Shown here: piece by piece, positions 3,112-34,685 of the stretch
Layout: each line of letters starts with the position of its first letter
How positions within the stretch are numbered: the first letter of the stretch is position 1
From: a virus
Strand: one strand, 5' to 3'
Length of the DNA: 64,000 nucleotides
IMG/VR virus record: IMGVR_UViG_3300005537_000023
Span: 9,233-73,232 of that record
Program-made: the position numbers and the translations under genes
The notes under the pieces: generated by a model
Told to the model about the DNA's origin: nothing
Seen by the model: only the letters and a program-made list of their open reading frames with translations
Database searches by the model: none

Positions 3112-3795
3112 ATGCCCGATCCCGCCGTCGCCCCCGTGGTCGAAACGCCCGCCCCTGCCCCGGCCAACGGCAAGGCGCCGGCGCCGGCCAAGCCCTCCCT
3201 CGCGGACGTGCTCCGTGGGCTCAGTCCGGCCGATGTCGAGGAAGCGAAGAAGGTTTTCGCCGATCTCGTCGGCGGCGCGGTTCCGAAAGCGGAAGCCAAG
3301 CCCGAGGAAAAGAAACCCGAGGCGGATCCGCACCCGATGCCCGACGGCCTCGTGGCACTGCCCACGAAATCCTTCCAGTGGACGCCCGATTGCTGGCGCG
3401 GCGACACGTACGCGATCAACGGCGAGACGCACTACCGCCCGATCCTCCACGGCGTCTACCTCGCCGCCGACACTCGCCCCGCCGTCCCCGCGCTCATCTT
3501 TGCGTTGTGGGAGCCGCTGCGGGTGATGGATCGGCGCGGCAAGATCGTTGAAGCGGCGCCCGATGGAAGCGTGGTGCTCGTGGACGCAACGCCCTCGCTC
3601 CTCACATTGCTGGACACGGACGTCAGCCAGGGATGCCCTCACGTCGCCGTCCGCCCGACTCGATCCACCGTCTCCACGAGCGGCGCCGAGGTGTGGTTTT
3701 TCGACGTGCAAGTGGAGCCCGATCGCCGCAATCCGCAGTTGCCGAAGCTCTACACGCGGGAAAGCGCCCTCGGAAAGCGAGGGGTGAAGCGATGA
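3112..3795 (+). CDS. Hypothetical protein, Pro/Ala/Lys-rich N-terminus
   Basis: AGGAG RBS then ATG 3112; first gene of the rightward module. Confidence 0.7.
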   Translation: MPDPAVAPVVETPAPAPANGKAPAPAKPSLADVLRGLSPADVEEAKKVFADLVGGAVPKAEAKPEEKKPEADPHPMPDGLVALPTKSFQWTPDCWRGDTYAINGETHYRPILHGVYLAADTRPAVPALIFALWEPLRVMDRRGKIVEAAPDGSVVLVDATPSLLTLLDTDVSQGCPHVAVRPTRSTVSTSGAEVWFFDVQVEPDRRNPQLPKLYTRESALGKRGVKR

Positions 3796-3983
3796 CGGAC
3801 GCACCGAAGCAGCGCCGCGGATTCGCCGTCATGTCGCCGGAGAAGCAGGCGGAGATCGCGAGCAAGGGCGGCAAGGCGGCGCACGCGAAGGGCACCGCGC
3901 ACGAGTTCTCATCCGAGGAGGCGCGCGAGGCCGGACGCAAAGGCGGGATGGCGGCGCGGGCGAAACGGGGAGCGGCGTCGTGA
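3792..3983 (+). CDS. KGG-repeat general stress protein
   Basis: RGFAVMSPEKQAEIASKGGKAAH...HEFSSEEAREAGRKGG. Confidence 0.85.
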   Translation: MTDAPKQRRGFAVMSPEKQAEIASKGGKAAHAKGTAHEFSSEEAREAGRKGGMAARAKRGAAS

Positions 3984-4717
3984 TCCCTCACGGCCTCTAC
4001 CTTCTCACCTTCATCGCCGCTGCCGTCGTCGCGGCTCTCGTCAGCACCGCCCGATTCCTCAGACGCGGCGCGGTGGTGCCGTGGGCAAGCGTGCAACTCC
4101 CAAGCAAGCCATTCGAGGGACGGCCGATTCCGTTGGGCGCTGGGCCGTGCAAGATCCCAGGGAGATCGGGGCCAGACGTCCAGTCGCTAGAGCGTCGAGA
4201 TGGATGCAACGCCATCACCCTGCTCCCAGTTGAGGCCTTCGTCCTGACTGAGATCGGCTTGTACTGTGACAAGCCCAATCGCCTGCACGTCACCAGCGTG
4301 AAGATCGGGCGAATGGAGTTGATCGAGAGCGGCGCCATCGTGGCGGACGCTTTCGGCAAAGGCGGGCCTTCCACGAAGATCGCCGCCGGTGCCACCATCT
4401 ATCCCACCACTGGCATCCGCTTCACCTTCACGAATCCAGACGTCGATCCGGTTGACGTGTCGCCCATGGTCATGGGCAAGCCAGTGGCATGCCCAATCAG
4501 TTCGCCCGGCCTCACCATCGCCGATGACATCGTTGCGATGGCGGGCACGGCTTTGGTGGCTGCGTACGCGCTTCACTCGCCGGGGCACATCCTCTTTGCC
4601 GCCGCCGGCCTCACCGCTGGCCTCGCCCTCGTGCGCGCCGTGGACTTCGCGCGGAAGGCCGTGAATTACAGCCGTTCGCTGGTGGCCAACTGGCGAGCGA
4701 GGAAGAAGAAGGCATGA
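3980..4717 (+). CDS. Membrane-anchored paralog of the candidate capsid protein at 6410
   Basis: Shares RPIPLGAGP, TLLPVEAFV, V.IGRM.L.E.G, GATIYPTTGI.FTFTNP with 6410-6994; N- and C-terminal hydrophobic helices. Confidence 0.75.
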   Translation: MIPHGLYLLTFIAAAVVAALVSTARFLRRGAVVPWASVQLPSKPFEGRPIPLGAGPCKIPGRSGPDVQSLERRDGCNAITLLPVEAFVLTEIGLYCDKPNRLHVTSVKIGRMELIESGAIVADAFGKGGPSTKIAAGATIYPTTGIRFTFTNPDVDPVDVSPMVMGKPVACPISSPGLTIADDIVAMAGTALVAAYALHSPGHILFAAAGLTAGLALVRAVDFARKAVNYSRSLVANWRARKKKA

Positions 4718-5698: not shown

Positions 5699-5779
5699 CG
5701 GCAAGGCAAACGTAGCGATTCCGAGGACTAAGCGCGAGACTCCACGTTGCGCAACACGCAACCGAGGAGATCGATCCGC

Positions 5780-6352
5780 ATGTACTCGCTCGCCAGCCTC
5801 AACGCCGCTCGCCGCCATCGTCGTCATCACCGCCATCATCACCGCCACAACCGGGCGGAGGCGATGAGTGGATCGAAGCGCGATCAGTTGGCGTACTTCG
5901 CCGGTCAGAAGGGCGTTGGAGGCGCGGTCTCTGGCCTCCTCGGCTACATGGACTCGTACAACGGCGAGCCCACCTTCTTCGCGACGGCGGGTGATCCCAC
6001 GAGCGGCGTCGGCCTCAAGGCGATGGTCGCGATCGCGGGCAACCTCGCGCAGGCCTTCCAAATCTGGACAGGCCGCTTCATGGGCAAGTCCATGGGCGCG
6101 CTCGGCAACGTGATCGACGGCGCGATCGCCGGTACCGCGGACGCGGGCTGGTTCTCGTGGACGTACGTGCAGGGCAACACCTACGGCGCCGCGAAGAAGG
6201 CGTCAGAGTCGCCGCCGCACAAGACGAGCGGTGTCGGCTTCAACTACGACGGCGCCCCCGAGCCTCGCGCGATGGGCGTCGGCACTCCTCGCGATCACGT
6301 CTCGCGCGCTGCGGCTGCGGTGCAGTCGAGCGGACTCGCCGGTTACATCTAG
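5780..6352 (+). CDS. Putative virion membrane/core protein with Arg/His-rich N-terminus
   Basis: GAGGAG RBS; RRHRRHHRHHHRHNR tract; Gly-rich hydrophobic helices; C-terminal SGVGF and MGVGT. Confidence 0.7.
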   Translation: MYSLASLNAARRHRRHHRHHHRHNRAEAMSGSKRDQLAYFAGQKGVGGAVSGLLGYMDSYNGEPTFFATAGDPTSGVGLKAMVAIAGNLAQAFQIWTGRFMGKSMGALGNVIDGAIAGTADAGWFSWTYVQGNTYGAAKKASESPPHKTSGVGFNYDGAPEPRAMGVGTPRDHVSRAAAAVQSSGLAGYI

Positions 6353-6409: not shown

Positions 6410-6994
6410 ATGATGTCCTTTGGTCGCCGCAATCCCGCTACCGTCGCCGGTACCCCCTACGCTCGCACGGGCAACGTTGCCGTCCGCGGCGCCTTCGCTC
6501 CTCGCTCCGGCGCGGTTGTGGGCTACACGCCCCGTCCGCGTGGCGCGGGAGTCGGCGCGTGCGGCGATGGCAGCACGAATCCGCCCGGCGGCACGCAGGC
6601 GTGGTGCTACAACACGCAGGGCAGCCGCCCGATCCCCCTCGGCGCTGGCCCCGTCGCGATCCCGGCGTTCGCCGCGGGTGCGAGCGGTACCAACAACGTG
6701 ACGTTGCTTCCGGTCGAAGCGTTCGTCATCGAAGACATCGAGGTGACGGACCCGACGGGCCTGCTCTTCGTGTCGAGCGTCCAGATCGGCCGCATGCAGT
6801 TGCTCGAAGGCGGCACGATCTCGACCGACTACTTCCAGTCGGCGTCGACGAAGTGCAAGTTGGCGCAGGGCGCGACGATCTACCCGACCACGGGCATCGT
6901 CTTCACCTTCACCAACCCGACCAACGCGATCGTCAACGTCTCCGTGGTCGTCACCGGAACGCCGGTGCCGTGCCCGCAGGGCGGCTTGAAGTGA
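6410..6994 (+). CDS. Candidate single jelly-roll major capsid protein with basic N-terminal extension
   Basis: AGGAG RBS, strong codon bias, about 8 alternating beta-strands over ~120 aa, N-terminal RPRGAGVGA; fold is inferred. Confidence 0.55.
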   Translation: MMSFGRRNPATVAGTPYARTGNVAVRGAFAPRSGAVVGYTPRPRGAGVGACGDGSTNPPGGTQAWCYNTQGSRPIPLGAGPVAIPAFAAGASGTNNVTLLPVEAFVIEDIEVTDPTGLLFVSSVQIGRMQLLEGGTISTDYFQSASTKCKLAQGATIYPTTGIVFTFTNPTNAIVNVSVVVTGTPVPCPQGGLK

Positions 6995-7024: not shown

Positions 7025-7354
7025 ATGGGAACCAGCGCAAGCAACCGATTCACGGGTCAGCCGGATGCGTTCTGCACCGGCACCACGTCGGCCGGAAACC
7101 CCTTGGTGGTCACGGCCACGAAGGATGCCCTCTTCACGAGGACGGCGGACGGCATCTACGTCGTCACCACAACGCAGAATTTCGATGCCGCGCACTGCAA
7201 AGTGGACGTGGACGTGGATGCGGCCAACCCCACCGTTCAGGTGGTGCACACCTCGGCGACGGTGAAGACGATCAACGTATTCACTGGCAGCACCGGCGTC
7301 GCGCTCGCGCCTACCCGCATCGCCGTCACGATCAAGAAGTTGCTCTCGCCGTAA
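7025..7354 (+). CDS. Small Thr/Val-rich beta-sandwich structural protein
   Basis: All-beta composition; follows the capsid candidate. Confidence 0.6.
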   Translation: MGTSASNRFTGQPDAFCTGTTSAGNPLVVTATKDALFTRTADGIYVVTTTQNFDAAHCKVDVDVDAANPTVQVVHTSATVKTINVFTGSTGVALAPTRIAVTIKKLLSP

Positions 7355-7381: not shown

Positions 7382-8404
7382 GTGGCGTACGAGCCTACTT
7401 TCGCGATCGACTGTATCGGAAGGGATCCTGGCGCCATGGGCAAAGTGGCGCTTGGAAGGCTCGCGGCCGCTCTCGTGGACATCAACGCGGAGTACATCCG
7501 GACCTACCCCGGAAGCTTCGCGAGTGTCTATGAGAGCGGCTTCGTCATTGGCGAACCGCTTGGCCGTGGCGGCCTGTGCGGCGATCGCCGCTGGCAAGAC
7601 GTCGCCGTGATGAGGGATTCCGGCATCGTCAAGCCGGACGATCTCGTGATGGCGCGCGTCGCCGAGTTGAACGAGGTGGAGAAAATCGCCGCCAAGGTGC
7701 GGGTGTACTCGAACGATGACGGCCTATACGAGTTGCTGGTGGAGTGGCCTGCAACGCTTCCCGTCGGTGCCGTATACCCCGAGAGCGTCTACCCGCACCC
7801 GATCGACGGCGCCCTCGTCGAGTCCCCGTCGGAAGCGATGGGCTCGCGCGAAAAGGCGTCTTTCGTCGCGCCCAAGCGCCCGTATCGGCTGACGATCGCC
7901 GTCGACTGCATCGGCGAGGATCATCCCGAGGCCGTGCGGATGGCCGTGGATCACTGCATGGGATACCTGCTGCACGCGCTGACGGACATCGACGAGATGT
8001 ACCTCCGCGCCTTCCCGGACAAATTCCAGCTGCTGTACCAGTCGTGTGTTGTCTATGATCGCATGAATCCGCCCGCTGGCAGCGCGTGCGGCGACGACGA
8101 CTGGCAAGACATCGTTGTCACCTACGAGAGTTGCAAAGGCGACTGCGAAGACGTGGCGTGCATTCGCGCCGCGGAGGTCAATGTCCACTACAGCATCCCC
8201 GTTGTGCCCATGGTGATGCTGCAACAGAATCTTCAACCTGGCGCGCGCACTCGTCACCTCTACCACGTGATGGACAAGTGGCCCGATGGCCTTGGCAACT
8301 ACCCACCAAGCGTCTTCGCAGATCAGACGGATCAGGGTATGATGATGATGGAGTGCCCCTCAACGGTGTTGGGCATGACCGGAGATGAAGAGGCCGCGCA
8401 ATGA
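7382..8404 (+). CDS. Tandem transglutaminase-like (papain-fold) cysteine protease; domain 1 lacks the catalytic Cys
   Basis: Internal duplication (IDCIG/VDCIG, CGD..WQD, R.AE.N); domain 2 GDCEDVACIRAAE...YHV...ECPSTVLGM. Confidence 0.7.
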   Translation: MAYEPTFAIDCIGRDPGAMGKVALGRLAAALVDINAEYIRTYPGSFASVYESGFVIGEPLGRGGLCGDRRWQDVAVMRDSGIVKPDDLVMARVAELNEVEKIAAKVRVYSNDDGLYELLVEWPATLPVGAVYPESVYPHPIDGALVESPSEAMGSREKASFVAPKRPYRLTIAVDCIGEDHPEAVRMAVDHCMGYLLHALTDIDEMYLRAFPDKFQLLYQSCVVYDRMNPPAGSACGDDDWQDIVVTYESCKGDCEDVACIRAAEVNVHYSIPVVPMVMLQQNLQPGARTRHLYHVMDKWPDGLGNYPPSVFADQTDQGMMMMECPSTVLGMTGDEEAAQ

Positions 8405-8997
8405 CGCTCTGCCCGCTTGCAATCGGAATCGGCGCTGTACTCGGAGGCGTCGCCACGGCGTGGTGGTTCATGTCCGACAAGGGCAAGGGCTCGACGACGG
8501 CGCCGCTCGGCACCCCGTCCAAGCTCGCCGGCCATCTCGTCCCCGCGATCGCCGGCACCTCGCCCGCGCCGCCGCTCCTTGCCCCTACCGCCGGCCTCGC
8601 GTCGATGGACGGCTTCTCGTGGGACTATCAGGTTGGCCCCGGCGATTCCGTGGGAGGCATCACGGAGGCAATCGTTGGCGACGACGGCCGATACCAGGAA
8701 TTGCTCCTCGCAAACCCCGCTCTTCTGACGGTGGGCGAGCCTGGCGTATACCTCGGCGAAAGCGCGTGGGATGCGGCGCCCGGCGCGCTCGACGGGCAGA
8801 CGCTCGCGATCCCGCTTCCGTGGGGCCGCTACATCGATCAATTGGGCAACCCCCGCGGCGGCCGCGAGCCCTTCATCCAGGACGCGCGAGCGCCGATGAC
8901 GCTGCCCGCTCTTCCGCCCGCGCCGCCGGCCGCGTCCACGTCAGGATTCGGCCCCGCGCCGTACGGTGAAATGGTTTCGATGGAGGCCGCAGCATGA
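8401..8997 (+). CDS. Membrane-anchored LysM-domain protein
   Basis: N-terminal TM helix; YQVGPGDSVGGITEAIVGDDGRYQELLLANP...GQTLAIP. Confidence 0.75.
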   Translation: MTLCPLAIGIGAVLGGVATAWWFMSDKGKGSTTAPLGTPSKLAGHLVPAIAGTSPAPPLLAPTAGLASMDGFSWDYQVGPGDSVGGITEAIVGDDGRYQELLLANPALLTVGEPGVYLGESAWDAAPGALDGQTLAIPLPWGRYIDQLGNPRGGREPFIQDARAPMTLPALPPAPPAASTSGFGPAPYGEMVSMEAAA

Positions 8998-9905
8998 AAC
9001 CGCTTGAATGGCTCGCGCTCGCGGCACTCGGCGTCGTCGGCTACTTCTTCTGGAGGAGCCGGCAGACGCAGACGACGAGTCCAGCGTGCCCCGCGCAGAC
9101 GCAACTGGACGGCTGGCTTTCGGACATCGCCACAGGCAAGATGACGACGGACGACGCCAACAAGTTGGCGCAGTCCTACGCCGGCGCGACGCCCCCGTGC
9201 ACCGACGCCGTCTCTGCCATCAACGCGGCGATCGCGGCGAAGGGCGGGATCGTCAAGGCATCCTCGCTGGCGCCAATTCACAGCGCCGCGCCGCTGGGTA
9301 AGGCCCCGCCGCCGCCAGGTGGTGTGCTGTACACGCCGCCTGGCACCCTTGTGCCGCACAGCCTGACGGATGCAGAGGCCGCCGAATTCTTCGGCGACTT
9401 CGCGGACACGGCAGGATTCCCCGGGCTGCTGACGGACTTCCTCGCGGCGAATCCAAAGCTTGCCGTGTACGCGCCGCCGGGCGGATGGCCGCCCAACACC
9501 TCGTTTCGCTACACCTACAGCGATTCCGGCACCACGGCCTACCCGGCCGGGCATGCCACGACGTTCGTTCCAACCGGCCGATTCGGCCCCGGCGACGTCC
9601 CCACGTACACGAGCACCAACCCGGCGATCACAGGCGAATGGACCTTTGCCGCGTGGGACCAGTACACCAACGACGCGCCCGGCGGTGGATACCAGCCGGC
9701 CCGAGACGCATCCGGCAAGCCCATCGCCCCGGACCCCACGCCGGCAACGTCAAGCAGCGGGCAGCGCCTCAACAACTTGGGCGTGTGGATTTGGGAGCCT
9801 GGCACCCAGGTGATGATCAAAAACAACTCGCCCGCCGCCGCATCCACCGCCGGGGTGGGCTTTGCGCCCCCGCCTCTTCTACTCGCCGCGGAGCCCTGGC
9901 AATGA
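8994..9905 (+). CDS. Membrane-anchored Pro/Thr-rich virion protein
   Basis: N-terminal TM helix WLALAALGVVGYFFW; C-terminal STAGVGFAPPPLLLAA. Confidence 0.7.
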   Translation: MKPLEWLALAALGVVGYFFWRSRQTQTTSPACPAQTQLDGWLSDIATGKMTTDDANKLAQSYAGATPPCTDAVSAINAAIAAKGGIVKASSLAPIHSAAPLGKAPPPPGGVLYTPPGTLVPHSLTDAEAAEFFGDFADTAGFPGLLTDFLAANPKLAVYAPPGGWPPNTSFRYTYSDSGTTAYPAGHATTFVPTGRFGPGDVPTYTSTNPAITGEWTFAAWDQYTNDAPGGGYQPARDASGKPIAPDPTPATSSSGQRLNNLGVWIWEPGTQVMIKNNSPAAASTAGVGFAPPPLLLAAEPWQ

Positions 9906-10330: not shown

Positions 10331-11011
10331 GTGCCGTCTCCCGCCGCACGACTGAACCACCTCGGCGGAGGTGCGCAGAGCAATCTCGGCCCGAAGGCTG
10401 AGAGGCAGTTCATTGCGCGCGTGTGTCAGTCGCGCTGCCGTGACGAGTCGTACGGCCTCGTGTGCAGCGTCAACGTCAAGCTCAGTGGCAGCGTTGCGGA
10501 CGTGGCCGCAAACGACATCTCATCGGCCTTCCTCGAAGTGGACTTTGGTGGCGGCGACTCCGACGAGTCGGCGTTCGCCATGGACTTGATCAACGGAACC
10601 TCGTTCCCCGCCATCGGCGGGTGCAACGTCTTCCTCAACTATCCGAAGACGGATGCGACGCAGCCCAACATTGACGTCAGCGTGTCCGTTGGGAAGTATG
10701 AGGTTGGCGCGCAAGCCGCACTCGGCTGCCGACGCACGATCAAGGCGCGCACCGTCAACGGGACGAGCGCGATCCTGCCCATCCCCAAGTTCGCCGTCCA
10801 AGCCGTCTACGCCAACACAGCAATCGGCGTCGCTGCGGCGCAATTCGATCAACTCCGCGCGCCTGTCGTCGGCGCCGCCATCCTTTCCACACTCAACCTC
10901 GGAAAGACGCAGGCCACTAGCGTCCCGATTATCAACGGCGCGCGCGGATTCCAACTCACCGTTGCCAACTCCACCGGCGATGCCGTCATCTTCAACCTGA
11001 GCCCCGCCTAA
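10331..11011 (+). CDS. Beta-rich structural protein, paralog A (capsid/penton candidate)
   Basis: All-beta pattern; full-length similarity to 11011-11745. Confidence 0.7.
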   Translation: MPSPAARLNHLGGGAQSNLGPKAERQFIARVCQSRCRDESYGLVCSVNVKLSGSVADVAANDISSAFLEVDFGGGDSDESAFAMDLINGTSFPAIGGCNVFLNYPKTDATQPNIDVSVSVGKYEVGAQAALGCRRTIKARTVNGTSAILPIPKFAVQAVYANTAIGVAAAQFDQLRAPVVGAAILSTLNLGKTQATSVPIINGARGFQLTVANSTGDAVIFNLSPA

Positions 11012-14024: not shown

Positions 14025-14030
14025 GACGCG

Positions 14031-22510: not shown

Positions 22511-22513
22511 GCC

Positions 22514-23469: not shown

Positions 23470-23475
23470 TGGCGC

Positions 23476-24941: not shown

Positions 24942-25000
24942 GGCGACGCGCCTACCCGCGTCGCCGTTTGCTTGTCAAGCGCGCTCGCTTGGGGCACTAT
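24942..25000. promoter_or_regulatory. Hairpin and overlapping divergent promoter-like elements
   Basis: GGCGACGCG 24942-50 pairs with CGCGTCGCC 24957-65; TTGTCA-N17-CACTAT 24972-25000; TTGACA on the minus strand at 24973-78. Confidence 0.4.
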
Positions 25001-27098: not shown

Positions 27099-28054
27099 GC
27101 CTCATCTCCACCGACGTCGCTTCCTCCACCCTCGGCGATGCCTCCACCACGGCAGACGTGGACGCAGCCGTCATGGAGATGACGAAGAACGGCGGCGTGC
27201 CGGACTACATCGCGAAGAACTTCTGGCGCTGGGTGGAGATCACCGGCGGCGGCCACACCCTTCGCTTCCTCGCCGCACCCACGTGCTACGCGATCGGAGA
27301 TGAGGACGCTCCCTTCTTCTGCGCGCGCGGCACCCCCTACGGCGCGCAGGCGATCGCGGACTACTGGGATTGCATCCTCCCGAGCCGCGTCCTCTTGCGC
27401 CACATCCAGGCGTCCAGCGATCCGTCGATCCGCTACATCGACGTCAAGGGCGCGCCGTACAACATCCCGCTTGCGAAGATCGAGACGCCAGCGGCAACGC
27501 AGGCGGCGAGCGATGCGGCCAACGCGAAGTTTGCGAGCCTCGGCGCCAACCCCGGCGATGGCCTGTCCGTCGGCTTCAAGAAATCGATCGTGGTTGGGCC
27601 GAATCTCGACGGCTCGCACGTGGCCATCTACGGCGGCATCGGCGGCGGCTACGATCCGCCGTGGAATGTTGTGCAGCCGTACAGCACGATCCACGGCAGT
27701 GCGTACGGCGACTACTCGCACGGCATCACGCTCGTCTCGCGCAAGTGCCAGTTGGATGGCAGCGACGCGGACCTACGCTTCGACGTCTTCGGCTCCACCG
27801 ATCCGACCATCTACGGCCTCGTGACGGATCAGAGCCGCTTCGATCCCATCTTCCCCAACGCCGGCCCGGACTCGCGCGCTGAATTCAGCGGCGGAAGCGC
27901 CGCACCCTCGGGGCCGCGATCGCCTGGTGGCGGCTTCAAGCCGACGGGGCCGACGACGCATCCAGCCGCGCAGGCGAGCGGTGGACTTTCCATGCCGGCG
28001 AAGATCGGCATCGCTGCGGTGATTGGCGCCGCGGCGTGGTATGCGATTGGGTGA
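27095..28054 (+). CDS. Uncharacterised enzyme-like protein with C-terminal TM anchor
   Basis: AQAIADYWDCILPS...GFKKSIV...VAIYG...VQPYSTIH...DYSHGITLV; C-terminal hydrophobic helix. Confidence 0.7.
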   Translation: MSLISTDVASSTLGDASTTADVDAAVMEMTKNGGVPDYIAKNFWRWVEITGGGHTLRFLAAPTCYAIGDEDAPFFCARGTPYGAQAIADYWDCILPSRVLLRHIQASSDPSIRYIDVKGAPYNIPLAKIETPAATQAASDAANAKFASLGANPGDGLSVGFKKSIVVGPNLDGSHVAIYGGIGGGYDPPWNVVQPYSTIHGSAYGDYSHGITLVSRKCQLDGSDADLRFDVFGSTDPTIYGLVTDQSRFDPIFPNAGPDSRAEFSGGSAAPSGPRSPGGGFKPTGPTTHPAAQASGGLSMPAKIGIAAVIGAAAWYAIG

Positions 28055-28413: not shown

Positions 28414-28415
28414 CC

Positions 28416-28946
28416 ATGCCATACCGCCACGGATTCAGTGAAGAGTCCATCCACCACAACATCGCCCTCTTCATCCGCGAGGGCTACCCGCAAGATCAGG
28501 CCGTCGCCATGGCCCTCGACATCGCGCGCAAGGCGTGGCGGCGGGAGCATCCGCGTGGCAACTACCCGGCGCACTTGAAGGGGATGCGGGGGCCGAGGAA
28601 GAGGCGGAGGGGGAAGCGGGCGCGGAGGAATCGCGCCTCGTCATCCGCAACACTGCAACTCGGCCCAGGTAGAGAGATGCCGGAGAATACGGCCATCCTG
28701 CGGCGGTCAACGTTGAAGGCGCGATACGCCGCCGGCGATCTGAATGGAGCGGTCAAGTCGGCCGGGCACTACGCGCGCAAGCACCGGCGGACGATGTACG
28801 TGTACGAGGGCAATTCGTACATGCACCGCGCGTTTCGCGTCAGCGACAAGCCGAGTGAATACCTGAGTCCGATCAACAATACCGGCGATCGCGTTGTGTC
28901 GGTGACGCCCGATCTCATCGTGTCGATTCACGAAGTCTACCGATGA
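28416..28946 (+). CDS. Basic phage protein
   Basis: NIALFIREGYPQDQAVAMAL resembles a common small phage domain; Arg/Lys tract. Confidence 0.6.
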   Translation: MPYRHGFSEESIHHNIALFIREGYPQDQAVAMALDIARKAWRREHPRGNYPAHLKGMRGPRKRRRGKRARRNRASSSATLQLGPGREMPENTAILRRSTLKARYAAGDLNGAVKSAGHYARKHRRTMYVYEGNSYMHRAFRVSDKPSEYLSPINNTGDRVVSVTPDLIVSIHEVYR

Positions 28947-29167
28947 CCCCCCACGCCCTCGCCACCCTCTTCTGGCTCCTCGCCCTCGTCGCCTTCCTCG
29001 CGCACGGCTGGGGCCTTTCCGGCCTCGGCCCCATCCCCGGCGTTGCCCCCGATTGGGCGTATCGCGCGGGCGCGGCGGCCGGGTACCCGCTGGCGGTGGC
29101 GTTTGCGTGCGTGGCGATGGCGCTGCACGCGGTAGGATGGAAGCGTGGCCGCGCCGATTCCGCCTGA
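28943..29167 (+). CDS. Small membrane protein (2 TM)
   Basis: Two hydrophobic helices. Confidence 0.55.
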   Translation: MTPHALATLFWLLALVAFLAHGWGLSGLGPIPGVAPDWAYRAGAAAGYPLAVAFACVAMALHAVGWKRGRADSA

Positions 29168-30308
29168 GTACGACACCGACGACGCCGATCCCCTCGTGGA
29201 CGCGCCCGCCCTCACAGCGCCCCCACCGCCGAAGTCCTACGAGTGCACCGCGTGCCTCCGCCGCGTTGCCGCGCGCGTCACCCGCTGTCCTTGCTGCAAC
29301 CAGATCGCAACGTGGCAGCCGTCCGACGAGCCGCCCGAGGTGCGCAAATTCAAGCTCGCGCGCCCGGCGCCGCAACCGTCCTTTTTCGGCCGTGGCCTCT
29401 CCCACGTCCCCGCCGGCCTCGTGTCCGCGTGGATGTCGGGCGGCCCGAAGGTGGACGCACGCATCTCGCTGCCGGGCGCAGGGGCGAAAGAGGCCGAGAG
29501 GGAAGGGCCGGCGAAGGCGCGTCCGCGGCTGCTCGCCAACGTGGAGTACGAGAAGCGCGATCGATTCACCACCGGCATCATCCCCGTGGACATCGCCTTC
29601 GGTGGCAAAGACGATCCGGGCATTCCCATCGGCGCCTCGTACATGCTCGCGAGTCCGCCCAACGCAGGGAAGTCCTCGATCGCCCTTCGCATCTGCGCCG
29701 CGATCGCCCAGCGCTACGGCGTGCCCGTCCTCTACGTCACCACGCCGGACGAGATGGGCGTAGACATGGTGGCCGAGTACGCGCGCGAAAGAGGCATCTG
29801 GCGCGAGTACCCATCGGCGGCGCGCTTCCTCCAGGTGGCGGTGGCCGAGACGGTGGAGGAGTCGATCGCGCTGGTCGACGAGGTGGATGCGCCCTTCTAC
29901 GTCCTCGATTCCACCAACGGCGGGCTCACGACGAGCAACCCCACCGTCAGCGGGAGCAAGGATTCGATCCTGCTCTACATCTCGAAGCTGCACGCGCACC
30001 GCTGCGGCAGGAAGATCGCGAAGTGGAAGGAAGCGCCGGGGCGCACCGGCCTCATCCTCGCGCACGGCACGAAAGACGGGGACATGTCCGGGCCACTCGC
30101 CGCGCGCCACAACGTGGACGGTACCTTCCTGCTCGAATACTTCGACCCCGCGACGGGCTGGGCGCTGGAGCCGCGCGCGCGCAAGGAATGGGTGCGCCTG
30201 ATCCAAGAGAAGTCGCGCGTATCCCCACCGCCGCCGCAAGGGCTTCTCCTCGCCTTCTACACGGACCAGAAGCGCGGCCCCGTGCCCGCGCAGCCATCCA
30301 CCGAATGA
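29145..30308 (+). CDS. RadA/Sms-like RecA-fold ATPase lacking the Lon-like domain
   Basis: N-terminal C4 finger YECTAC...RCPCC; TGIIPVDIAFGG; Walker A SPPNAGKS; VLDS; HGTKDGDMSGPLAARHNVD. Confidence 0.8.
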   Translation: MAAPIPPEYDTDDADPLVDAPALTAPPPPKSYECTACLRRVAARVTRCPCCNQIATWQPSDEPPEVRKFKLARPAPQPSFFGRGLSHVPAGLVSAWMSGGPKVDARISLPGAGAKEAEREGPAKARPRLLANVEYEKRDRFTTGIIPVDIAFGGKDDPGIPIGASYMLASPPNAGKSSIALRICAAIAQRYGVPVLYVTTPDEMGVDMVAEYARERGIWREYPSAARFLQVAVAETVEESIALVDEVDAPFYVLDSTNGGLTTSNPTVSGSKDSILLYISKLHAHRCGRKIAKWKEAPGRTGLILAHGTKDGDMSGPLAARHNVDGTFLLEYFDPATGWALEPRARKEWVRLIQEKSRVSPPPPQGLLLAFYTDQKRGPVPAQPSTE

Positions 30309-30417: not shown

Positions 30418-32415
30418 ATGGCGCTGGTGAATACGGCAAACAACCCCAACGGTGTCCTTGGCCTCGGCCAGTCCGCAGCGATGGATCAGTACGTCACCTT
30501 CGGCGGGCGTACGCTGCCGCCGGACGAAAACGCGATCCTCGCCTCGTTCAACTCGCTTACCGGCGTGGTGGCCACCGTTGCCCCGCTGCTCCCTCTCTCC
30601 CCCGCTGGCAACGACGGCGCCTCCATCACCGCCGCACTCCAGTCCGGCGACGTCGTCCTCCAGCAGGGCGCCACGTACAACATTCAGACGGCAATCAACC
30701 TCAATGGCCTGACGGATCGTACGCTCGATCTGAACGGCGCGAAGCTCGTCGGAAAGTTCAGCGGCGTCCTCACGGTGGCGAACTCCGTCATCTTCGGCCA
30801 GGCAGTCAACGCGGCGCTGGCCCCGACAACCTGCAACGGCACGCCCGTGGTCGGATCGAACCAGCTTGTTGTTACGCTTGCTGCTGGAATCGTTGCGGGC
30901 AACTCGATCAAGGTGGTTTCGGCCGCGTCCGCAAACCTCGTTGCTGTCTACCGAGTGACGTTGGTGGTGGCGAACACACTCACTCTCGACCGGCCGATCC
31001 TACTGCCGTTTGCGAACCTCGACGTTGTTACGCTCTTGCAGTCGGTCCCGACGAGGCTCGTCATCATCGGTCGCGGCGCGGTCATCACGGGCGACTCGTT
31101 CGCCGCGATCGACATCCTGCACGCATACCAGTGCTCGGTTGTAGGGCCGATCTATGCGGACGTCGAGGGTGGCCACGGCCCCCTGCGCGGCTTCGCACTC
31201 GACATCGGCTCGTTCTCGTCGTCAATGTCGCAGACCTACGTCGACGGATACGACCACTCGTCTAACACGGACTTCCCGGACTTCGGCGTGGCGATGCTAG
31301 GTACCGAGCAGTGCTCGGTCATGGATAGCCGCGCCGGACACTGCAACGTGGCCGGCCTCATCTGCCTCGACGGCTACCAGTCGCGCATGTCCCGGTGCGA
31401 CGGCTACTCGTGCAACACCGCGCTTGCGTCTGCGGCGGCGTTCGGCACGCAAGCTGTCGCGGCGACGACGCAGGGGTGCGAGGACTGCGAGTTCGATTCG
31501 ATCTCTGGAAGCCAGTCCGTCTTCGGCGTCGCGGTAACGAATGCGACGCGGTGCACGTGGCGCAACGTCAGATCGATCGGATGTACGACGAGAAACCTCG
31601 ACGTTGGAGGCGGCGCTACGGCATGCATGGACTGTGTGTTCGATGGAGTGTCCGTCGGCATAGGGACCCCTACGACCGCGTCGATTCTCGTCAGCGCTAC
31701 GGTCGTGAGGCCGTCGTTCTTCAACGTTCGTTTCAGCGGCGTCCTTGGCACGGCGGCATGCATGTCTCTAGGCTGTCCTGGCGCTCTGAGAGGACTGATT
31801 GCGATCTCTTCAAACACTACGACCGGCACCGTCCTAGTGACGTCTGGCGCCGCAGACGACGACACAGTCATCTCGGACGTCAGAATCACGCTGAAAGCGT
31901 CGGCAGCAAACACGATCGGTGTCAACGTTCAGAACAGCGCCGGAAGAGTTTTCATCAGAAACGCTCTGATCGCACTCGGCGTAGCGAGCGACGTCGGTAT
32001 CTTCCAGAACGGTATCTGCGTCGTGGAGATGGACGACGTGACCGTGTCGAATCCGAACGCCGTCGCGACAACCGTGGGGTTCATCGCGAACGGCGCGACA
32101 TCCGTCACGAGGCGCAAGGGCAGGATCAACATGTCCGCCACCGCTACTCCGTTCACGCTCGTGCAGTCGGACGTGGGAACGTTCACCACGAATGGCGCGG
32201 TGGCAGTAACGGTGCCGTTCAAGGATATCCCAGACGTCACCGGCGGAGGCGTGGCGCCGGTGAGTTTGACGGGCGCCAAGGTGAATACGTGGATGATCGC
32301 GGCAGCTGGCACGCCCGCACCTGATCAGACGATCGTTATCACGCTCGCCACTGGGTTTACGTCCACCGGGAAGAACCTAGATACGTCCGTCCGCGGATAC
32401 AAGGTTATGGACTGA
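30418..32415 (+). CDS. Spike/receptor-binding protein with right-handed beta-helix
   Basis: GAGGAG RBS; pectin-lyase-like opening (NDGASITAAL...GATYNI...LDLNGAKL); Val/Asn/Cys beta repeats. Confidence 0.75.
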   Translation: MALVNTANNPNGVLGLGQSAAMDQYVTFGGRTLPPDENAILASFNSLTGVVATVAPLLPLSPAGNDGASITAALQSGDVVLQQGATYNIQTAINLNGLTDRTLDLNGAKLVGKFSGVLTVANSVIFGQAVNAALAPTTCNGTPVVGSNQLVVTLAAGIVAGNSIKVVSAASANLVAVYRVTLVVANTLTLDRPILLPFANLDVVTLLQSVPTRLVIIGRGAVITGDSFAAIDILHAYQCSVVGPIYADVEGGHGPLRGFALDIGSFSSSMSQTYVDGYDHSSNTDFPDFGVAMLGTEQCSVMDSRAGHCNVAGLICLDGYQSRMSRCDGYSCNTALASAAAFGTQAVAATTQGCEDCEFDSISGSQSVFGVAVTNATRCTWRNVRSIGCTTRNLDVGGGATACMDCVFDGVSVGIGTPTTASILVSATVVRPSFFNVRFSGVLGTAACMSLGCPGALRGLIAISSNTTTGTVLVTSGAADDDTVISDVRITLKASAANTIGVNVQNSAGRVFIRNALIALGVASDVGIFQNGICVVEMDDVTVSNPNAVATTVGFIANGATSVTRRKGRINMSATATPFTLVQSDVGTFTTNGAVAVTVPFKDIPDVTGGGVAPVSLTGAKVNTWMIAAAGTPAPDQTIVITLATGFTSTGKNLDTSVRGYKVMD

Positions 32416-32437
32416 GAGAGAAAACGCAGGCCGCAGC

Positions 32438-32776
32438 ATGTCTACCAAAACAGATCACGGAGATCACGAGCGAGGAACGTTCGTGCACCCTTGCGACAAC
32501 AACTCGTACAGGTACCCGTCCAGCATCGAGTCCGAGCATCACGTTGGGTTTGACGGAAGGCCAATATACTCCAAGGCTCAGAGAGGCGCGCTCAAGCTTG
32601 TGAGTGATCTACCAGTGACCTCGACAGATGACGAACACGTCCCGTCGTTCGTTGGCCATGAGAGACATTACTATCTTGATACAACTGTATCAGTAAATGA
32701 GTCAGTCGTACACGCAGAACCTCTGACTGATGCGCAAGACGCGCAAGACGCAGAGAGTAAGAATGGCGCTGCGTAA
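32438..32776 (+). CDS. Acidic His-rich hypothetical protein (possible spike chaperone)
   Basis: Lies between the two spike genes; AT-richer codons. Confidence 0.5.
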   Translation: MSTKTDHGDHERGTFVHPCDNNSYRYPSSIESEHHVGFDGRPIYSKAQRGALKLVSDLPVTSTDDEHVPSFVGHERHYYLDTTVSVNESVVHAEPLTDAQDAQDAESKNGAA

Positions 32777-34685
32777 CAATGGAATTGACGCCAGCGGCGT
32801 GATAGGGCTCATATCTGTTGCGTCATTTGATGACTACCAAACGTCTGGTAGTAGGACTCTTCCTGGCGATGAGTCGGCAATTGTAAAAACAATTGACAGC
32901 ATTTCGTCAGTTCTAAATACGGTAGTTCCTGCATCTGGAGTCAGGACCATGTGGTTTGGTGACTCCATCACCGGACTAGGAGGTACCGGAGCGGCCGTGT
33001 CCGCTAGGGACCAGTTCTGGACAGACTCTAGGTCTAGAGGTCTAGACGTTCGTGCGTTCGCTCGTACGTATCAGGGAACCGTCGGGGAGCCTCACCCATA
33101 CGAGCCATGGTCGGACGGAAACAGCGGATACATGATCGAGGATCTCACCGCCCTCATGGGCGGTGCGCCAACCATCACCGCTCCGTCTCCTCTCACGAAG
33201 AACTTCATCGGCCTGAACGGCCAGCCGGACCTGATCGTACTCGGAGCAGGAACAAACAACATTGACACGTCTGGCGATTCGGCCGCGACGTGCGAAACGA
33301 AGCTGACGACGCTGCTTGCGCAGATCACCGCGACGTGCCCGAACGCGCGCGTCATCGTCACGACGATCCCGAGTTTCTATTCGCCCGCGACGCCCTCCGG
33401 CGGGATCGCGGCGGCGAATGCGAGCGTCGCTGCGTACAACGCATGGATTCTCGCCAACGTCCCCGGACTCAGCCCTCTCTATTCGGTAGTTGATCCTACG
33501 CCGCAATGGTCCAACGATACGGCGTACCCACCGGACGGGACACACCTCACGGAGGAGGGGGCGGCAGCCAGGGGCAGGTCCGTCACGGACGAGGCTGCCA
33601 GGCTATTCTCTGGCAGACGAGGCCCGGTATCCCCGAGGCCGTTCAAACCTCGCTCTCAGCAGGCATCCGTCCGGCTGCCGACCGCAGGCACTAGCAAGAT
33701 ACAGACGAATGCGCCGGATGCTGGATGGATTTTGCCCGCGGCAAGCTTCGCTGTCGGTGCGCGCATCCAGATACTCGGACTCAGTGCTGGGGTAGACAAC
33801 TACGTTTTTTCGTCCTGTCCCGTCGGAGGCAACGGGCCGGCTAACGGGTTCTCAGTCACGATCGACGCGTCGGTAAGTCCGCCCAAGTGGACTATCTATC
33901 TGAAAGGTATCGCGGGCGCCGCTGCCTCGTTCGCTGCTCCAGTCGTGGCCGATCTTCCAATATGGCTGTCCTGGCACGTGGATGACGTAGCGCGCACGAT
34001 CACTCTCTGGATCGCTATGCCGCACAGCCTGTCTGTCGCCGGCTCCGTGTACGTGTGCGCATGCGTTGGCGGCGCGACAGGGATAGCGGCGTTCTCACAA
34101 GGAGATCCTAACCCTCTCTTCAACATCGGCACAGACAGCACTGGCGTTCGTGGTGGCCCAGCCATGATCGTGGACAACGTCTGGATGGCGAGCGGAAAGA
34201 ACCTGCCAGGTGTTTTCTCTTTCCGGCCTGCGTTCGAGGCGTGGGTATACGACGGTACGGACATTCCAGGAGTGACTGCGTCTCTACACTGCGCGGAGGG
34301 TACAGGAGCCGTCGTCGCCAGCGGAAGCGGAGGCCAGTCAGCGACGATAGCCACTGGAGACTGGAGCGCTTCGGGTGAAGTGTCGTGGCCGAGCGACGAG
34401 AACGGGGATGCCACTCCTACCGCGTGGACTACGGTAGACATGAACGACGCTAATCAAGTCCTTCCGTCATCTTCGTTCAACGCCACGACGATTGAGCTGA
34501 CGGGTCCAATGACGGGGGACCACACGATTACTCTACCAAGAAGGAAGGGGAGGATCGTAACTCTAAATAATAAGACGATCGGTGGACACAACACCCCAGG
34601 GATTGGACTTACTGGAGTAAGCGCCGGGGGCTCTCCTGGCATATCCAGGGTGTACTGGGACGGAGTGAACTTCGTGCCTGCCTAA
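32763..34685 (+). CDS. Spike/receptor-binding protein with SGNH hydrolase and lectin-like domains
   Basis: WFGDSIT, GNSGY, LGAGTNN, PDGTHL blocks, then a ConA/LamG-like beta region. Confidence 0.8.
   Translation: MALRNNGIDASGVIGLISVASFDDYQTSGSRTLPGDESAIVKTIDSISSVLNTVVPASGVRTMWFGDSITGLGGTGAAVSARDQFWTDSRSRGLDVRAFARTYQGTVGEPHPYEPWSDGNSGYMIEDLTALMGGAPTITAPSPLTKNFIGLNGQPDLIVLGAGTNNIDTSGDSAATCETKLTTLLAQITATCPNARVIVTTIPSFYSPATPSGGIAAANASVAAYNAWILANVPGLSPLYSVVDPTPQWSNDTAYPPDGTHLTEEGAAARGRSVTDEAARLFSGRRGPVSPRPFKPRSQQASVRLPTAGTSKIQTNAPDAGWILPAASFAVGARIQILGLSAGVDNYVFSSCPVGGNGPANGFSVTIDASVSPPKWTIYLKGIAGAAASFAAPVVADLPIWLSWHVDDVARTITLWIAMPHSLSVAGSVYVCACVGGATGIAAFSQGDPNPLFNIGTDSTGVRGGPAMIVDNVWMASGKNLPGVFSFRPAFEAWVYDGTDIPGVTASLHCAEGTGAVVASGSGGQSATIATGDWSASGEVSWPSDENGDATPTAWTTVDMNDANQVLPSSSFNATTIELTGPMTGDHTITLPRRKGRIVTLNNKTIGGHNTPGIGLTGVSAGGSPGISRVYWDGVNFVPA

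What the first reader, a model, noticed from the sequence alone, without database searches (positions are those of the whole stretch)
3112..34685. 31 kb morphogenesis module without tailed-phage hallmarks: probable large tailless, membrane-containing jelly-roll virus
Seen: no terminase, portal, HK97 capsid, tail tube or tape measure is recognisable here. Instead there are small all-beta proteins (6410, 7025, 10331, 11011), more than 15 small TM proteins, TM-anchored muralytic enzymes and spike-like proteins. Established: internal-membrane viruses (PRD1, PM2, sphaerolipoviruses) have this kind of inventory but much smaller genomes. Inference: an undescribed lineage of at least 64 kb that joins a jelly-roll-type virion to a lambdoid-style early region. 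Caveat: head and tail genes could lie outside the window.
Basis: partly seen in the sequence, partly recalled or inferred. Interest (0 to 1): 0.87.

Follow-up and report, generated by a model that had tools for sequence, protein, structure and literature searches.

The report
Large tailless double-jelly-roll soil phage
This 73-kb circular virus genome from soil has none of the genes of tailed phages and instead seems to build its shell from two copies of a double jelly-roll capsid protein, which would make it several times larger than the known bacterial viruses of that kind.

Summary
The window is bases 9233-73232 of a complete 73,232-bp virus record with a 90-bp direct terminal repeat. Pfam, PHROGs and NCBIfam scans of 118 ORF translations covering the whole record found no terminase, portal, HK97 capsid, tail tube or tape measure. 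Six-frame searches with four of these hallmark families (two terminase, portal, HK97 capsid) also found nothing.

Around these genes lie 12-17 membrane proteins, eight with a shared N-terminal leader. There are also an SLT transglycosylase, an amidase, a LysM-like protein, a RadA-like ATPase, an intein-split gene and two spike proteins.

My best reading is a temperate, tailless, probably membrane-containing double jelly-roll virus of a new lineage. The penton, the packaging motor, the membrane and the host are unproven.

The parts
3112..3795 (+). First ORF of the + strand module (227 aa from the ATG at 3112), function unknown
   Evidence: GC3 frame signal; start located; no family hit
3980..4717 (+). 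Membrane protein carrying the '6410-type' beta domain, flanked by hydrophobic segments
   Evidence: 52% identity over 125 aa to 6410-6994, E 7e-35; hydrophobic segments
5747..6352 (+). 201-aa protein with an Arg/His-rich basic N-terminus, possibly a DNA-binding core protein (inference)
   Evidence: Translation; no family hit
6410..6994 (+). 194-aa protein with a loose leader-like N-terminus and a ~115-aa beta domain; penton or vertex candidate, unresolved
   Evidence: Two paralogs in the record, 3980-4717 and record 7003-7746; only 5 database homologs; AF2 pLDDT 44.7; generic beta-sandwich matches only
7025..7354 (+). 109-aa Thr/Val-rich protein, probably all-beta; not modelled
   Evidence: Translation; no family hit
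7382..8404 (+). 340-aa internally duplicated protein conserved next to the capsid gene in distant relatives; candidate cysteine protease by motif only
   Evidence: Both halves match the 174-aa ORF L006:659-1183 (E 2e-10 and 2e-5); no Pfam hit even at E<=1
8401..8997 (+). N-terminally anchored protein with a LysM-like segment (label from my reading; no Pfam hit)
   Evidence: Hydrophobic segment at residues 1-19; 36% identity, E 3e-18, to L006:1732-2469 in the same relative position
8994..9905 (+). 303-aa Pro/Gly-rich protein with an N-terminal hydrophobic anchor (by eye)
   Evidence: Translation
10331..11011 (+). [quoted passage not shown]
   Evidence: 65% identical to 11011-11745; matches the family profile at E 8.8e-70; both paralogs are kept on related 59-kb and 82-kb contigs
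11011..11745 (+). [quoted passage not shown]
11760..12869 (+). 369-aa N-terminally anchored protein with Gly-Tyr-rich repeats
   Evidence: Frame plot and translation; start located; hydrophobic segment at residues 5-23
12872..15464 (+). Four consecutive ORFs (12872-13534, 13531-13740, 13740-14024, 14031-15464) that each begin with the leader (L/I)S-x-RPR(L/A)...V-R-V-G; three have C-terminal hydrophobic segments
   Evidence: Regex hits; alignment A5; hydrophobic segments
15962..17764 (+). Gene of unknown family interrupted by an intein with an HNH endonuclease; the junction residues look intact
   Evidence: Pfam Intein_splicing 1.2e-12, above cut-off; NCBIfam intein N-terminal region 1.6e-10; PHROGs HNH hits; Cys at the intein start and His-Asn-Cys at its end are visible
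17768..18460 (+). Lytic transglycosylase with an N-terminal hydrophobic stretch
   Evidence: Pfam SLT 2.6e-5, 24.2 bits (cut-off 21.3); phrog_13530 7.3e-16
18996..19709 (+). N-acetylmuramoyl-L-alanine amidase with an N-terminal hydrophobic stretch
   Evidence: Pfam Amidase_2 4.3e-12; phrog_12609 endolysin 1.9e-28
21095..21717 (+). Two small proteins (105 and 102 aa), each with two hydrophobic segments
22241..23921 (+). Three more leader-bearing membrane proteins (22241-22510, 22514-23287, 23652-23921)
24972..26156 (+). 394-aa largely helical, charged protein; scaffold or size-determining candidate (inference)
   Evidence: Translation; only a weak coiled-coil Pfam hit
27095..28054 (+). 319-aa protein with a C-terminal hydrophobic anchor (by eye)
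   Evidence: Translation
28943..29167 (+). 74-aa protein with two hydrophobic segments; its end overlaps the start of the ATPase gene
29145..30308 (+). Zn-ribbon plus RecA/RadA-like ATPase, the only P-loop ATPase found in the module; candidate packaging motor (inference)
   Evidence: NCBIfam RadA/sms 4e-11, 42 bits against a cut-off of 403; RecA and RadA chains in the PDB; weak Pfam AAA_25; one homolog only, 86% identical, on the 59-kb contig
30418..32415 (+). 665-aa spike candidate that shares its N-terminal ~56 residues with the next spike; the beta-helix body is my reading only
   Evidence: no Pfam, PHROGs or PDB sequence hit
32730..34685 (+). 651-aa spike candidate with an SGNH/GDSL esterase domain
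   Evidence: Pfam Lipase_GDSL_2 7.6e-12; shared N-terminus
1..3014 (-). Divergent minus-strand cluster that continues outside the window. It includes a phrog_3758 'virion structural protein' (1266-1661) and an HTH plus coiled-coil protein (1962-3014)
   Evidence: phrog_3758 3.9e-26; translations
39183..40319 (-). Tyrosine integrase (temperate lifestyle)
   Evidence: Pfam Phage_integrase 1.5e-18; phrog_1 7.8e-31

Best explanation
The 31-kb + strand block is the virion, entry and lysis module of a temperate, tailless, icosahedral dsDNA virus of a bacterium with peptidoglycan. Its shell is built from double jelly-roll (DJR) capsid proteins, as in PRD1, PM2, FLiP and STIV.

Shown or predicted:
- Two tandem paralogs (10331-11011 and 11011-11745) have a compact DJR fold.
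- The modelled paralog is predicted to form head-to-tail trimers, which is the pseudo-hexagonal capsomer of this virus kind.
- No tailed-phage machinery exists anywhere in the complete 73.2-kb genome.

Inferred:
- The 12-17 membrane proteins populate an internal lipid vesicle under the shell.
- The shared N-terminal leader on eight of the module's proteins is a sorting or processing signal for incorporation into the particle.
- The two 650-aa proteins, which share an N-terminal adaptor, are interchangeable vertex spikes. One carries an SGNH esterase that would act on a surface polysaccharide.
- The anchored SLT, amidase and LysM-like proteins open the cell wall at entry or at lysis, as the virion transglycosylase P7 does in PRD1.
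- The Zn-ribbon RadA-like ATPase, with the small two-segment membrane protein just upstream, packages the DNA in place of the usual FtsK/A32-type ATPase.
- The integrase and the recombination/regulation half of the genome give lysogeny.
For: 1. Completeness. The record is 73,232 bp with a 90-bp direct terminal repeat, and the window is 9233-73232.

2. No tailed-phage genes. There is no terminase, portal, HK97 capsid, tail tube or tape measure among 118 ORF translations. Six-frame family searches also found none.

3. Capsid protein model. 11011-11745 was modelled with a 73-row alignment at pLDDT 88.4 and pTM 0.85, giving two beta domains.

6. Homotrimer prediction. The score is 0.79 and the best of 3 controls is 0.00. 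In the tool's calibration this mark was reached by 20 of 30 proteins solved as pairs of one chain and by 1 of 23 proteins solved as single chains. The runs agree in at least 84% of contacts, and the partner's pLDDT is at least 83. The counts hold only roughly, because I used my own alignment and three copies. Each copy uses two different surfaces, which fits a ring.

7. Duplication. Exactly two family members exist in the genome. Both are kept on related contigs of 58,984 and 82,108 bp. Those contigs also carry the ATPase homolog and the 6410 homologs.

8. Conserved neighbourhood. In a 31%-identical relative (L006), the capsid gene lies beside homologs of 7382-8404 and 8401-8997.

9. Membrane proteins. 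14 of 40 module ORFs are flagged as hydrophobic, against 2 of 32 in the rest of the window.

10. Wall enzymes and spike. SLT, Amidase_2 and GDSL domains are present.
Against: - The top rows are cellular glycosidases, not capsid proteins.
- The model has about 14 strands, not a textbook 16, and no clear helices after strands F and F'.
- There is no sequence similarity to FLiP or PRD1 capsid proteins.
- No FtsK/HerA/A32 packaging ATPase is detectable. The only ATPase is RadA-like and could simply serve recombination.
- No penton was identified.
- No lipid evidence is possible from sequence.
- A minus-strand cluster carries a PHROG 'virion structural protein', a label that comes from tailed phages.
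- The record is a single soil-metagenome assembly with no isolate, host or micrograph.
- The trimer pass could come from resemblance to solved DJR or GH172 trimers.
Confidence: 0.7

Rival explanations
1. It is a very divergent tailed phage. Its terminase, portal, HK97 capsid and tail proteins have drifted beyond profile detection. The two DJR-like proteins would then be fibre, decoration or receptor-binding proteins.
For: - Most module ORFs have no family at all: 42 of 47 have no PHROG.
- phrog_3758 'virion structural protein' is present on the minus strand.
- The SLT protein also touches PHROGs named baseplate hub and lytic tail fibre.
- BFVD Foldseek hits to the capsid model include tail fibre and spike entries.
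- Jelly-roll domains are common in phage fibres.
Against: - Terminase large subunit is normally among the easiest phage genes to detect. Six-frame searches with two terminase families, one portal family and one HK97 family gave nothing at E<=1, while controls matched.
- No soluble ORF of portal or terminase size remains unassigned. The ORFs of 300 aa or more are membrane-anchored, coiled-coil, internally duplicated, intein-split, RadA-like or spike-like.
- The rigid full-length structural matches are capsid-type DJR proteins only.
- A ring trimer is predicted.
Confidence: 0.13
2. It is not a capsid-forming virus. It would be an integrative plasmid or another mobile element, for example one spread in membrane vesicles. 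The DJR-like proteins would be GH172-like carbohydrate-active or surface proteins, and the membrane and muralytic proteins would serve transfer.
For: - Many membrane proteins plus SLT and amidase enzymes also characterise Gram-positive conjugation systems (recalled).
- A ParB-like gene lies outside the window (weak PHROGs hit, 2.5e-4), and an integrase is present.
- No packaging ATPase of the usual type was found.
Against: - No relaxase, VirB4, VirD4 or FtsK-type protein was found in any scan.
- No Pfam hit to DUF2961 or any other family for the two proteins at E<=0.01.
- The proteins are 226 and 244 aa, against 369-447 residues for the matched GH172/DUF2961 chains.
- They have no signal peptide or hydrophobic segment.
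- Two spike-like proteins with a shared adaptor and the many phage-type genes in the other half of the genome fit a virus.
Confidence: 0.1
3. The record is a chimeric metagenome assembly that joins a small DJR virus to an unrelated temperate phage fragment. The large genome size would then be an artefact.
For: It is a single soil-metagenome source. The structural and early halves have different database affinities.
Against: - GC content is even across the window, 0.59-0.68 in 2-kb windows.
- The record closes on a 90-bp terminal repeat.
- The DJR module alone is 31 kb.
- Homologs of the capsid pair, the ATPase and 6410 sit on independent contigs of 58,984 and 82,108 bp from other collections.
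Confidence: 0.04

Closest known systems
PRD1 and other Tectiviridae (Bamfordvirae)
   Same: - The gene inventory is similar: many small membrane proteins, a transglycosylase annotated in the structural block (P7), spike proteins at the end of the module, and small membrane proteins beside the ATPase gene (P20 and P22 beside P9).
   Different: - PRD1 is 14,927 bp and linear, with a terminal protein and its own DNA polymerase. This genome is 73,232 bp with a direct terminal repeat, an integrase and no polymerase hit.
- There is no sequence similarity of the capsid proteins or of the ATPase to P9.
- This genome has two capsid paralogs instead of one, each 226-244 aa against 395 aa.
- It has a RadA-like ATPase, not an FtsK/HerA-type one.
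FLiP and phiCjT23 (Finnlakeviridae) capsid proteins
   Different: FLiP is a 9,174-nt circular genome, described as ssDNA in the ICTV profile abstract listed. This genome is 73 kb with dsDNA-phage-type recombination, methylation and clamp genes. There is no sequence similarity.
GH172 / DUF2961 cellular double jelly-roll proteins (4kq7, 7v1v, 8ic8, 8ah3)
   Different: They are 369-447-residue enzymes encoded in carbohydrate-use loci. The present proteins are 226-244 aa, have no Pfam hit, are duplicated in tandem, and sit in a virus structural module.
PM2-like temperate corticoviruses (Vinavirales)
   Same: These are temperate DJR viruses with internal membranes, widespread as prophages (PMC5894146, passage).
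   Different: Prokaryotic DJR genomes found by that survey were 'roughly between 7 and 18 kb', with an FtsK-HerA ATPase as the most prominent shared gene. Here the genome is 73 kb and no such ATPase exists. PM2 structures did not appear in the listed rows, so that comparison is inconclusive.
   Same: Two adjacent capsid genes and a membrane-virus-like inventory.
   Different: In those viruses the two genes each encode a single jelly roll (PMC8328091 abstract). Here each gene encodes two beta domains, and the two genes are 65% identical paralogs.

Membership tests
Caudoviricetes (tailed phages) | Terminase large subunit | tested here: not met
   No hit in Pfam, PHROGs or NCBIfam scans of 118 ORF translations. 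Six-frame PF03354 and PF03237 gave 0 matches at E<=1 while controls matched. This is sequence profiles only.
Caudoviricetes (tailed phages) | Portal protein | tested here: not met
   Six-frame PF04860 gave 0 matches. No portal PHROG. Sequence profiles only.
Caudoviricetes (tailed phages) | HK97-fold major capsid protein | tested here: not met
   Six-frame PF05065 gave 0 matches. No capsid PHROG or Pfam hit. The folds of most ORFs were not modelled, so a fold-level HK97 protein is not formally excluded.
DJR-capsid viruses (Bamfordvirae, Varidnaviria) | Major capsid protein with two jelly-roll domains in the DJR arrangement | tested here: met
   [not shown]
DJR-capsid viruses (Bamfordvirae, Varidnaviria) | Trimeric pseudo-hexagonal capsomer | tested here: met
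   This is a prediction only. The homotrimer score is 0.79 and the best of 3 controls is 0.00. The mark was reached by 20 of 30 solved one-chain pairs and by 1 of 23 single chains. Contact agreement is at least 84% and the partner's pLDDT is at least 83. The pass may reflect likeness to solved trimers.
DJR-capsid viruses (Bamfordvirae, Varidnaviria) | Single jelly-roll penton protein | tested here: inconclusive
   [not shown]
DJR-capsid viruses (Bamfordvirae, Varidnaviria) | FtsK-HerA (A32/P9-type) packaging ATPase; common but not universal, as FLiP-like and Odin groups lack it | tested here: not met
   Six-frame PF04665 and PF01580 gave 0 matches at E<=10. No similarity of 29145-30308 to PRD1 P9. 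The only strict Walker A matches lie in ORFs with no ATPase family hit.
DJR-capsid viruses (Bamfordvirae, Varidnaviria) | Internal lipid membrane | not testable with these tools
   There is only the indirect excess of hydrophobic ORFs: 14 of 40 against 2 of 32.
Tectiviridae | Linear ~15-kb genome with inverted terminal repeats, terminal protein and protein-primed DNA polymerase B | tested here: not met
   The genome is 73,232 bp with a 90-bp direct terminal repeat. No DNA polymerase family hit in any scan. An integrase is present.
Helvetiavirae (sphaerolipovirus-like) | Two different capsid proteins, each a single jelly roll | tested here: not met
   The modelled protein has two beta domains, at about residues 10-137 and 145-244. 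The neighbouring gene is a 65% identical paralog.
GH172 / DUF2961 glycoside hydrolases | Sequence match to the DUF2961 family | tested here: not met
   No Pfam family at E<=0.01 for either paralog. No PDB sequence hit with profiles A1 or A2 at E<=1. The resemblance is of fold only.
RadA/Sms DNA repair protein (for 29145-30308) | Zn ribbon, RecA-like ATPase and C-terminal Lon-like domain, scoring above the equivalog cut-off | tested here: not met
   TIGR00416 gives 42.3 bits against a cut-off of 403 and matches only profile positions 57-244 of 454. The Cys-rich N-terminus is visible. The protein ends about 56 residues after the matched ATPase region (residues 122-331 of 387), so there is no room for a Lon-like domain.

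The most novel reading that the evidence does not exclude
This is the first representative of a high-rank lineage (order or above) of bacterial DJR viruses whose genomes are 59-82 kb, four to ten times the 7-18 kb reported for prokaryotic DJR viruses. On this reading, three inventions made the size increase possible:
- a duplicated minimal DJR capsid protein that builds a large lattice;
- a RadA-type ring ATPase recruited as the packaging motor in place of FtsK/A32;
- a cleavable N-terminal leader that sorts eight module proteins, most of them membrane proteins, into the particle, perhaps processed by the conserved duplicated protein 7382-8404.

It would be a bacterial parallel to the growth of eukaryotic DJR viruses towards giant viruses.
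Probability: 0.3. Interest if true: 0.92.

Novelty: new variant of a known kind. Interest (0 to 1): 0.78.

Why it matters
Bacterial and archaeal viruses with double jelly-roll capsids have so far looked uniformly small. A metagenomic survey put them at roughly 7-18 kb (PMC5894146), and the ANME-1 families are about 10 kb (PMC9894754). Large genomes in this virus kingdom were therefore thought to be a eukaryotic development.

A complete 73-kb temperate bacterial genome with this capsid type has relatives on 59-kb and 82-kb contigs. It would show that the architecture also scales up in bacteria. It would give a new capsid protein family (74 clusters, none matching a PHROG family) for finding tailless phages that current pipelines miss or mislabel. 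It would also raise testable questions:
- how DNA is packaged without the canonical ATPase;
- what the shared leader peptide does;
- why two capsid paralogs are kept.

My three literature searches listed no description of such a virus. They cover only the held open-access library, and supplements could not be read.

Tried and rejected
**Searches for close relatives that found nothing**
- GenBank phages by DNA.
- GenBank phages by protein, with 14031-15464, 1266-1661 and 11011-11745.
- IMG/VR.
- GTDB species genomes.
- The first JGI metagenome scan. The second scan gave three short loci.

**Sequence links of the capsid family to known proteins**
- None to the PDB.
- None to PHROGs: 0 of 73 members hit.
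- None to FLiP or PRD1 capsid proteins by hhalign.
- The ESM Atlas model of the capsid protein was poor (pLDDT 0.41) and its neighbours were uninformative.

**6410-6994 as penton**
- The alignment of 6 rows gave pLDDT 44.7, so the fold search carries little weight.
- Its similarity to L006:1204-1683 was not supported (hhalign E 0.39; profile search).

**7382-8404 as a transglutaminase-like cysteine protease**
- The Cys...His...Asp motif is my recollection of that superfamily.
- Pfam gives nothing even at E<=1. I keep it only as an idea.

**Extein of the intein-split gene**
- No Pfam or PDB hit.
- The Atlas structural neighbours are about 257-aa viral hypothetical proteins (TM 0.74-0.80), and one cluster is 13% Peptidase_M10. 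This is a lead only.

**Leader motif**
- The loose regex occurs 6 times, against a mean of 1.2 and a maximum of 4 in 30 dinucleotide shuffles.
- It was defined after seeing the data, so the positional pattern (all at ORF starts, all on the + strand of the module) matters more than the count.

**Host**
- The nearest phage homologs of the clamp, the exonuclease and DUF7666 come from Alphaproteobacteria, Actinomycetota, Firmicutes and Betaproteobacteria phages at under 50% identity.
- There are no tRNA genes, so no host call is possible.

**Other**
- Rfam: no RNA family in the window.
- Sequencing runs: one DNA holder, a soil metagenome that may be the source. No RNA holder is listed.

Full report
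**What the record is.** The window is bases 9233-73232 of a 73,232-bp virus record whose ends repeat 90 bp directly, so it is a closed or terminally redundant genome. GC content is about 65% and even along the window. Because such DNA is full of spurious ORFs, I called genes by third-position GC and corrected several starts.

**Check of the observation.**
- I scanned 47 ORFs of the finding, 51 of the rest of the window and 20 that include the 9.2 kb outside it against Pfam and PHROGs. A further 45 ORF translations, mostly of the module, went against NCBIfam.
- No terminase, portal, HK97 capsid, tail tube or tape measure family appeared.
- Six-frame searches of the whole record with PF03354, PF03237, PF04860 and PF05065 gave no match at E<=1, while the control genomes matched.
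- Inside the finding only four proteins pass a curated Pfam cut-off: an intein, an SLT transglycosylase, an Amidase_2 and a GDSL esterase.
- A hydrophobicity scan flags 14 of 40 module ORFs against 2 of 32 elsewhere in the window. Two of the 14 are the long spike proteins and are probably false. Five more anchors are visible by eye only.

**The capsid proteins.**
- ORFs 10331-11011 and 11011-11745 are 65% identical. In a database of 5.8 billion proteins they have only six close relatives. These always come as a pair where the contig is long enough, on contigs of 58,984 and 82,108 bp.
- A profile search of 1.84 billion representatives found 74 clusters at E<=0.001, mostly 220-310 aa long. None of the 73 aligned members hits a PHROG, and the profile finds nothing in PDB sequences.
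- With this alignment, AlphaFold2 gives a confident all-beta, two-domain model: pLDDT 88.4, pTM 0.85.
- In a structure search of 48,161 chains, most rows align one domain only. Of the 8 rows that align 175 residues or more, 7 are double jelly-roll proteins at rmsd 5.4-6.7 A:
  - capsid proteins of FLiP (6.5), STIV (6.3), phiCjT23 (6.3) and PRD1 (5.9).
  - The eighth row has rmsd 23.6 A.
- A second look at Foldseek's top 1000 chains gives 9 such rows, all double jelly-roll, adding GH172 8ah3 and PR772 P3.
- 4kq7 and 7v1v are the cellular proteins published as nesting among viral capsid proteins in structure searches and as forming capsomer-like trimers (PMC8812541, passages read). That 8ic8 belongs to GH172 is my recollection.
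- A three-copy complex prediction scored 0.79, with the best of 3 controls at 0.00. The mark was reached by 20 of 30 proteins solved as one-chain pairs and by 1 of 23 solved as single chains. The runs agree in at least 84% of contacts, and the partner's pLDDT is at least 83. The counts hold only roughly, because I used my own alignment and three copies. Each copy uses two different faces, as in a ring. The pass may owe something to solved DJR trimers.
- A profile built locally finds exactly two family members in the genome.

**The rest of the module, in gene order.**
- A membrane protein (3980-4717) and a soluble protein (6410-6994) share a ~115-aa beta domain at 52% identity, E 7e-35. A probable third copy lies outside the window. 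This is the natural penton or vertex candidate, but with six sequences the model reached only pLDDT 44.7, so the question is open.
- 7382-8404 is an internal duplication.
- 8401-8997 is an anchored protein with a LysM-like segment. That label is my reading; Pfam gave no hit.
- After the capsid pair comes an anchored Gly-Tyr-repeat protein (11760-12869).
- Four consecutive ORFs follow whose products begin with the same ~25-residue leader, consensus M-x-x-(L/I)-S-x-R-P-R-(L/A)-x-V...V-R-V-G-A. Three more such ORFs lie at 22241-23921, and a looser version heads 6410-6994.
- The loose pattern occurs 6 times, against 1.2 expected. Every occurrence sits a few residues after a start codon on the + strand of the module. 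Most of these proteins end in a hydrophobic segment.
- 15962-17764 is a gene of unknown family split by an intein with an HNH endonuclease. The junction residues look intact.
- An SLT transglycosylase and an amidase follow, each with a hydrophobic N-terminus.
- The module ends with a 74-aa protein with two hydrophobic segments, overlapping the start of a Zn-ribbon RecA/RadA-like ATPase. Last come two ~650-aa proteins with a shared 56-residue N-terminus; the second carries an SGNH/GDSL esterase.

**Relatives and conserved neighbourhood.**
- Three short metagenome contigs encode a capsid homolog at 31% identity.
- In the longest, L006, this gene lies about 1.5-2.8 kb downstream of homologs of 7382-8404 (E 2e-10 and 2e-5 to the two halves) and of 8401-8997 (E 3e-18). 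An anchored Gly-Tyr-rich protein lies between them.
- So the capsid gene travels with the same partners across a wide sequence distance.
- These relatives have one capsid gene on the stretch held, so the duplication may be specific to the window's clade.
- No relative was found in GenBank phages, IMG/VR or 185,579 GTDB species genomes.

**How it most likely works.**
- Shown or predicted: a DJR-type capsid protein pair that trimerises, no tailed-phage machinery, wall-degrading domains, and an integrase.
- Inferred: trimers of the two paralogs tile a large icosahedral shell over a lipid vesicle that carries the many membrane proteins.
- Inferred: the leader directs these proteins to the assembling particle and may be removed on maturation.
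- Inferred: the spikes, exchangeable through their common adaptor, bind and modify a surface polysaccharide.
- Inferred: the anchored SLT, amidase and LysM-like proteins breach the wall on entry, on exit or both.
- Inferred: the RadA-like ATPase, docked on its small membrane partner, fills the shell with DNA.
- Scaling from the ~66-nm particle I recall for PRD1 and its 14.9-kb genome suggests a particle of roughly 100-115 nm. This is my estimate, not a result.
- The other half of the genome provides lysogeny and replication support. It holds the integrase, a YqaJ/RecE-like exonuclease, HTH regulators, an SNF2 helicase, two DNA methyltransferases and a sliding clamp.

**Comparison with what is known.**
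- It works like PRD1, PM2 or FLiP-type viruses, but it fails membership of each named family.
  - It is not a tectivirus: no linear genome with inverted repeats, no polymerase, and five times the size.
  - It is not sphaerolipovirus-like: each capsid gene has two domains.
  - It lacks the FtsK-HerA ATPase that is the most prominent shared gene of prokaryotic DJR viruses. FLiP-like and Odin-group viruses lack it too.
- Published prokaryotic DJR genomes are 'roughly between 7 and 18 kb' (PMC5894146, passage). The structurally discovered ANME-1 families are about 10 kb (PMC9894754, passages).
- Larger tailless membrane phages that I recall, such as SSIP-1 at about 44 kb, were not checked in any call.
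- Three literature searches listed nothing like a 73-kb bacterial DJR virus. The supplements were closed.

**Rivals.**
- A tailed phage diverged beyond recognition is the main rival. Against it stand the complete failure of terminase, portal and capsid profiles and the lack of any unassigned soluble ORF of suitable size.
- A non-viral element with GH172-like proteins is possible, because the top structural rows are enzymes. However, no transfer genes exist, and the proteins are small, unannotated, duplicated and set among spikes.
- Assembly chimerism is unlikely, given the independent 59-kb and 82-kb contigs that carry several module genes.

**Limits.**
- Everything here is computational and rests on one soil-metagenome genome.
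- The host is unknown.
- The membrane, the penton, the motor, the leader's role and the protease idea are all inferences.
- The protease idea has no profile support.

Noticed in passing
window 12872-15464 and 22241-23921 (also 6410-6994): Eight ORFs begin with a shared ~25-residue leader, (L/I)S-x-RPR(L/A)...VRVG(A/D). Most also end in a hydrophobic segment. I know of no described signal of this form. It could be a sorting or cleavage signal.
   Followed up: partly
window 15962-17764: An apparently intact intein with an HNH endonuclease splits a ~240-aa protein of unknown family inside the structural module. The N-extein's Atlas model resembles ~257-aa viral hypothetical proteins (TM 0.74-0.80).
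   Followed up: partly
window 60988-62025: An IS1595-family transposase (Pfam DDE_Tnp_IS1595 3e-29 plus its zinc ribbon) sits inside the virus genome, among the replication-associated genes.
   Followed up: no
window 40492-41994 (-): A 500-aa protein with a weak GHKL-type ATPase hit (HATPase_c_3, 0.0012) lies next to the integrase. It may be a defence or accessory gene.
   Followed up: no
record 8210-9349 (-), ending at window 117: A 379-aa protein has about ten tandem ~16-residue Ala/Leu/Thr/Pro-rich repeats, then a charged helical stretch and a hydrophobic C-terminus. It belongs to the divergent minus-strand cluster that also holds phrog_3758 (window 1266-1661).
   Followed up: no
window 23921-24972: About 1 kb inside the module has no convincing coding frame by third-position GC and slightly lower GC content. 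It may be a regulatory region between two operons. No Rfam family was found.
   Followed up: partly
window 42894-43517 (-) and 51800-52315 (+): A free-standing HNH endonuclease (phrog_374, 2.9e-45) and an HTH protein with weak similarity to HNH-endonuclease PHROGs lie in the early region.
   Followed up: no
L006 1-619: The distant relative's contig starts with two paralogous ~120-aa beta-rich ORFs upstream of the conserved duplicated-protein homolog. I did not test their relation to window 7025-7354.
   Followed up: no
window 5747-6352: The protein has an N-terminal run rich in Arg and His. This is unusual, and it may be a nucleic-acid-binding or metal-binding core protein.
   Followed up: no
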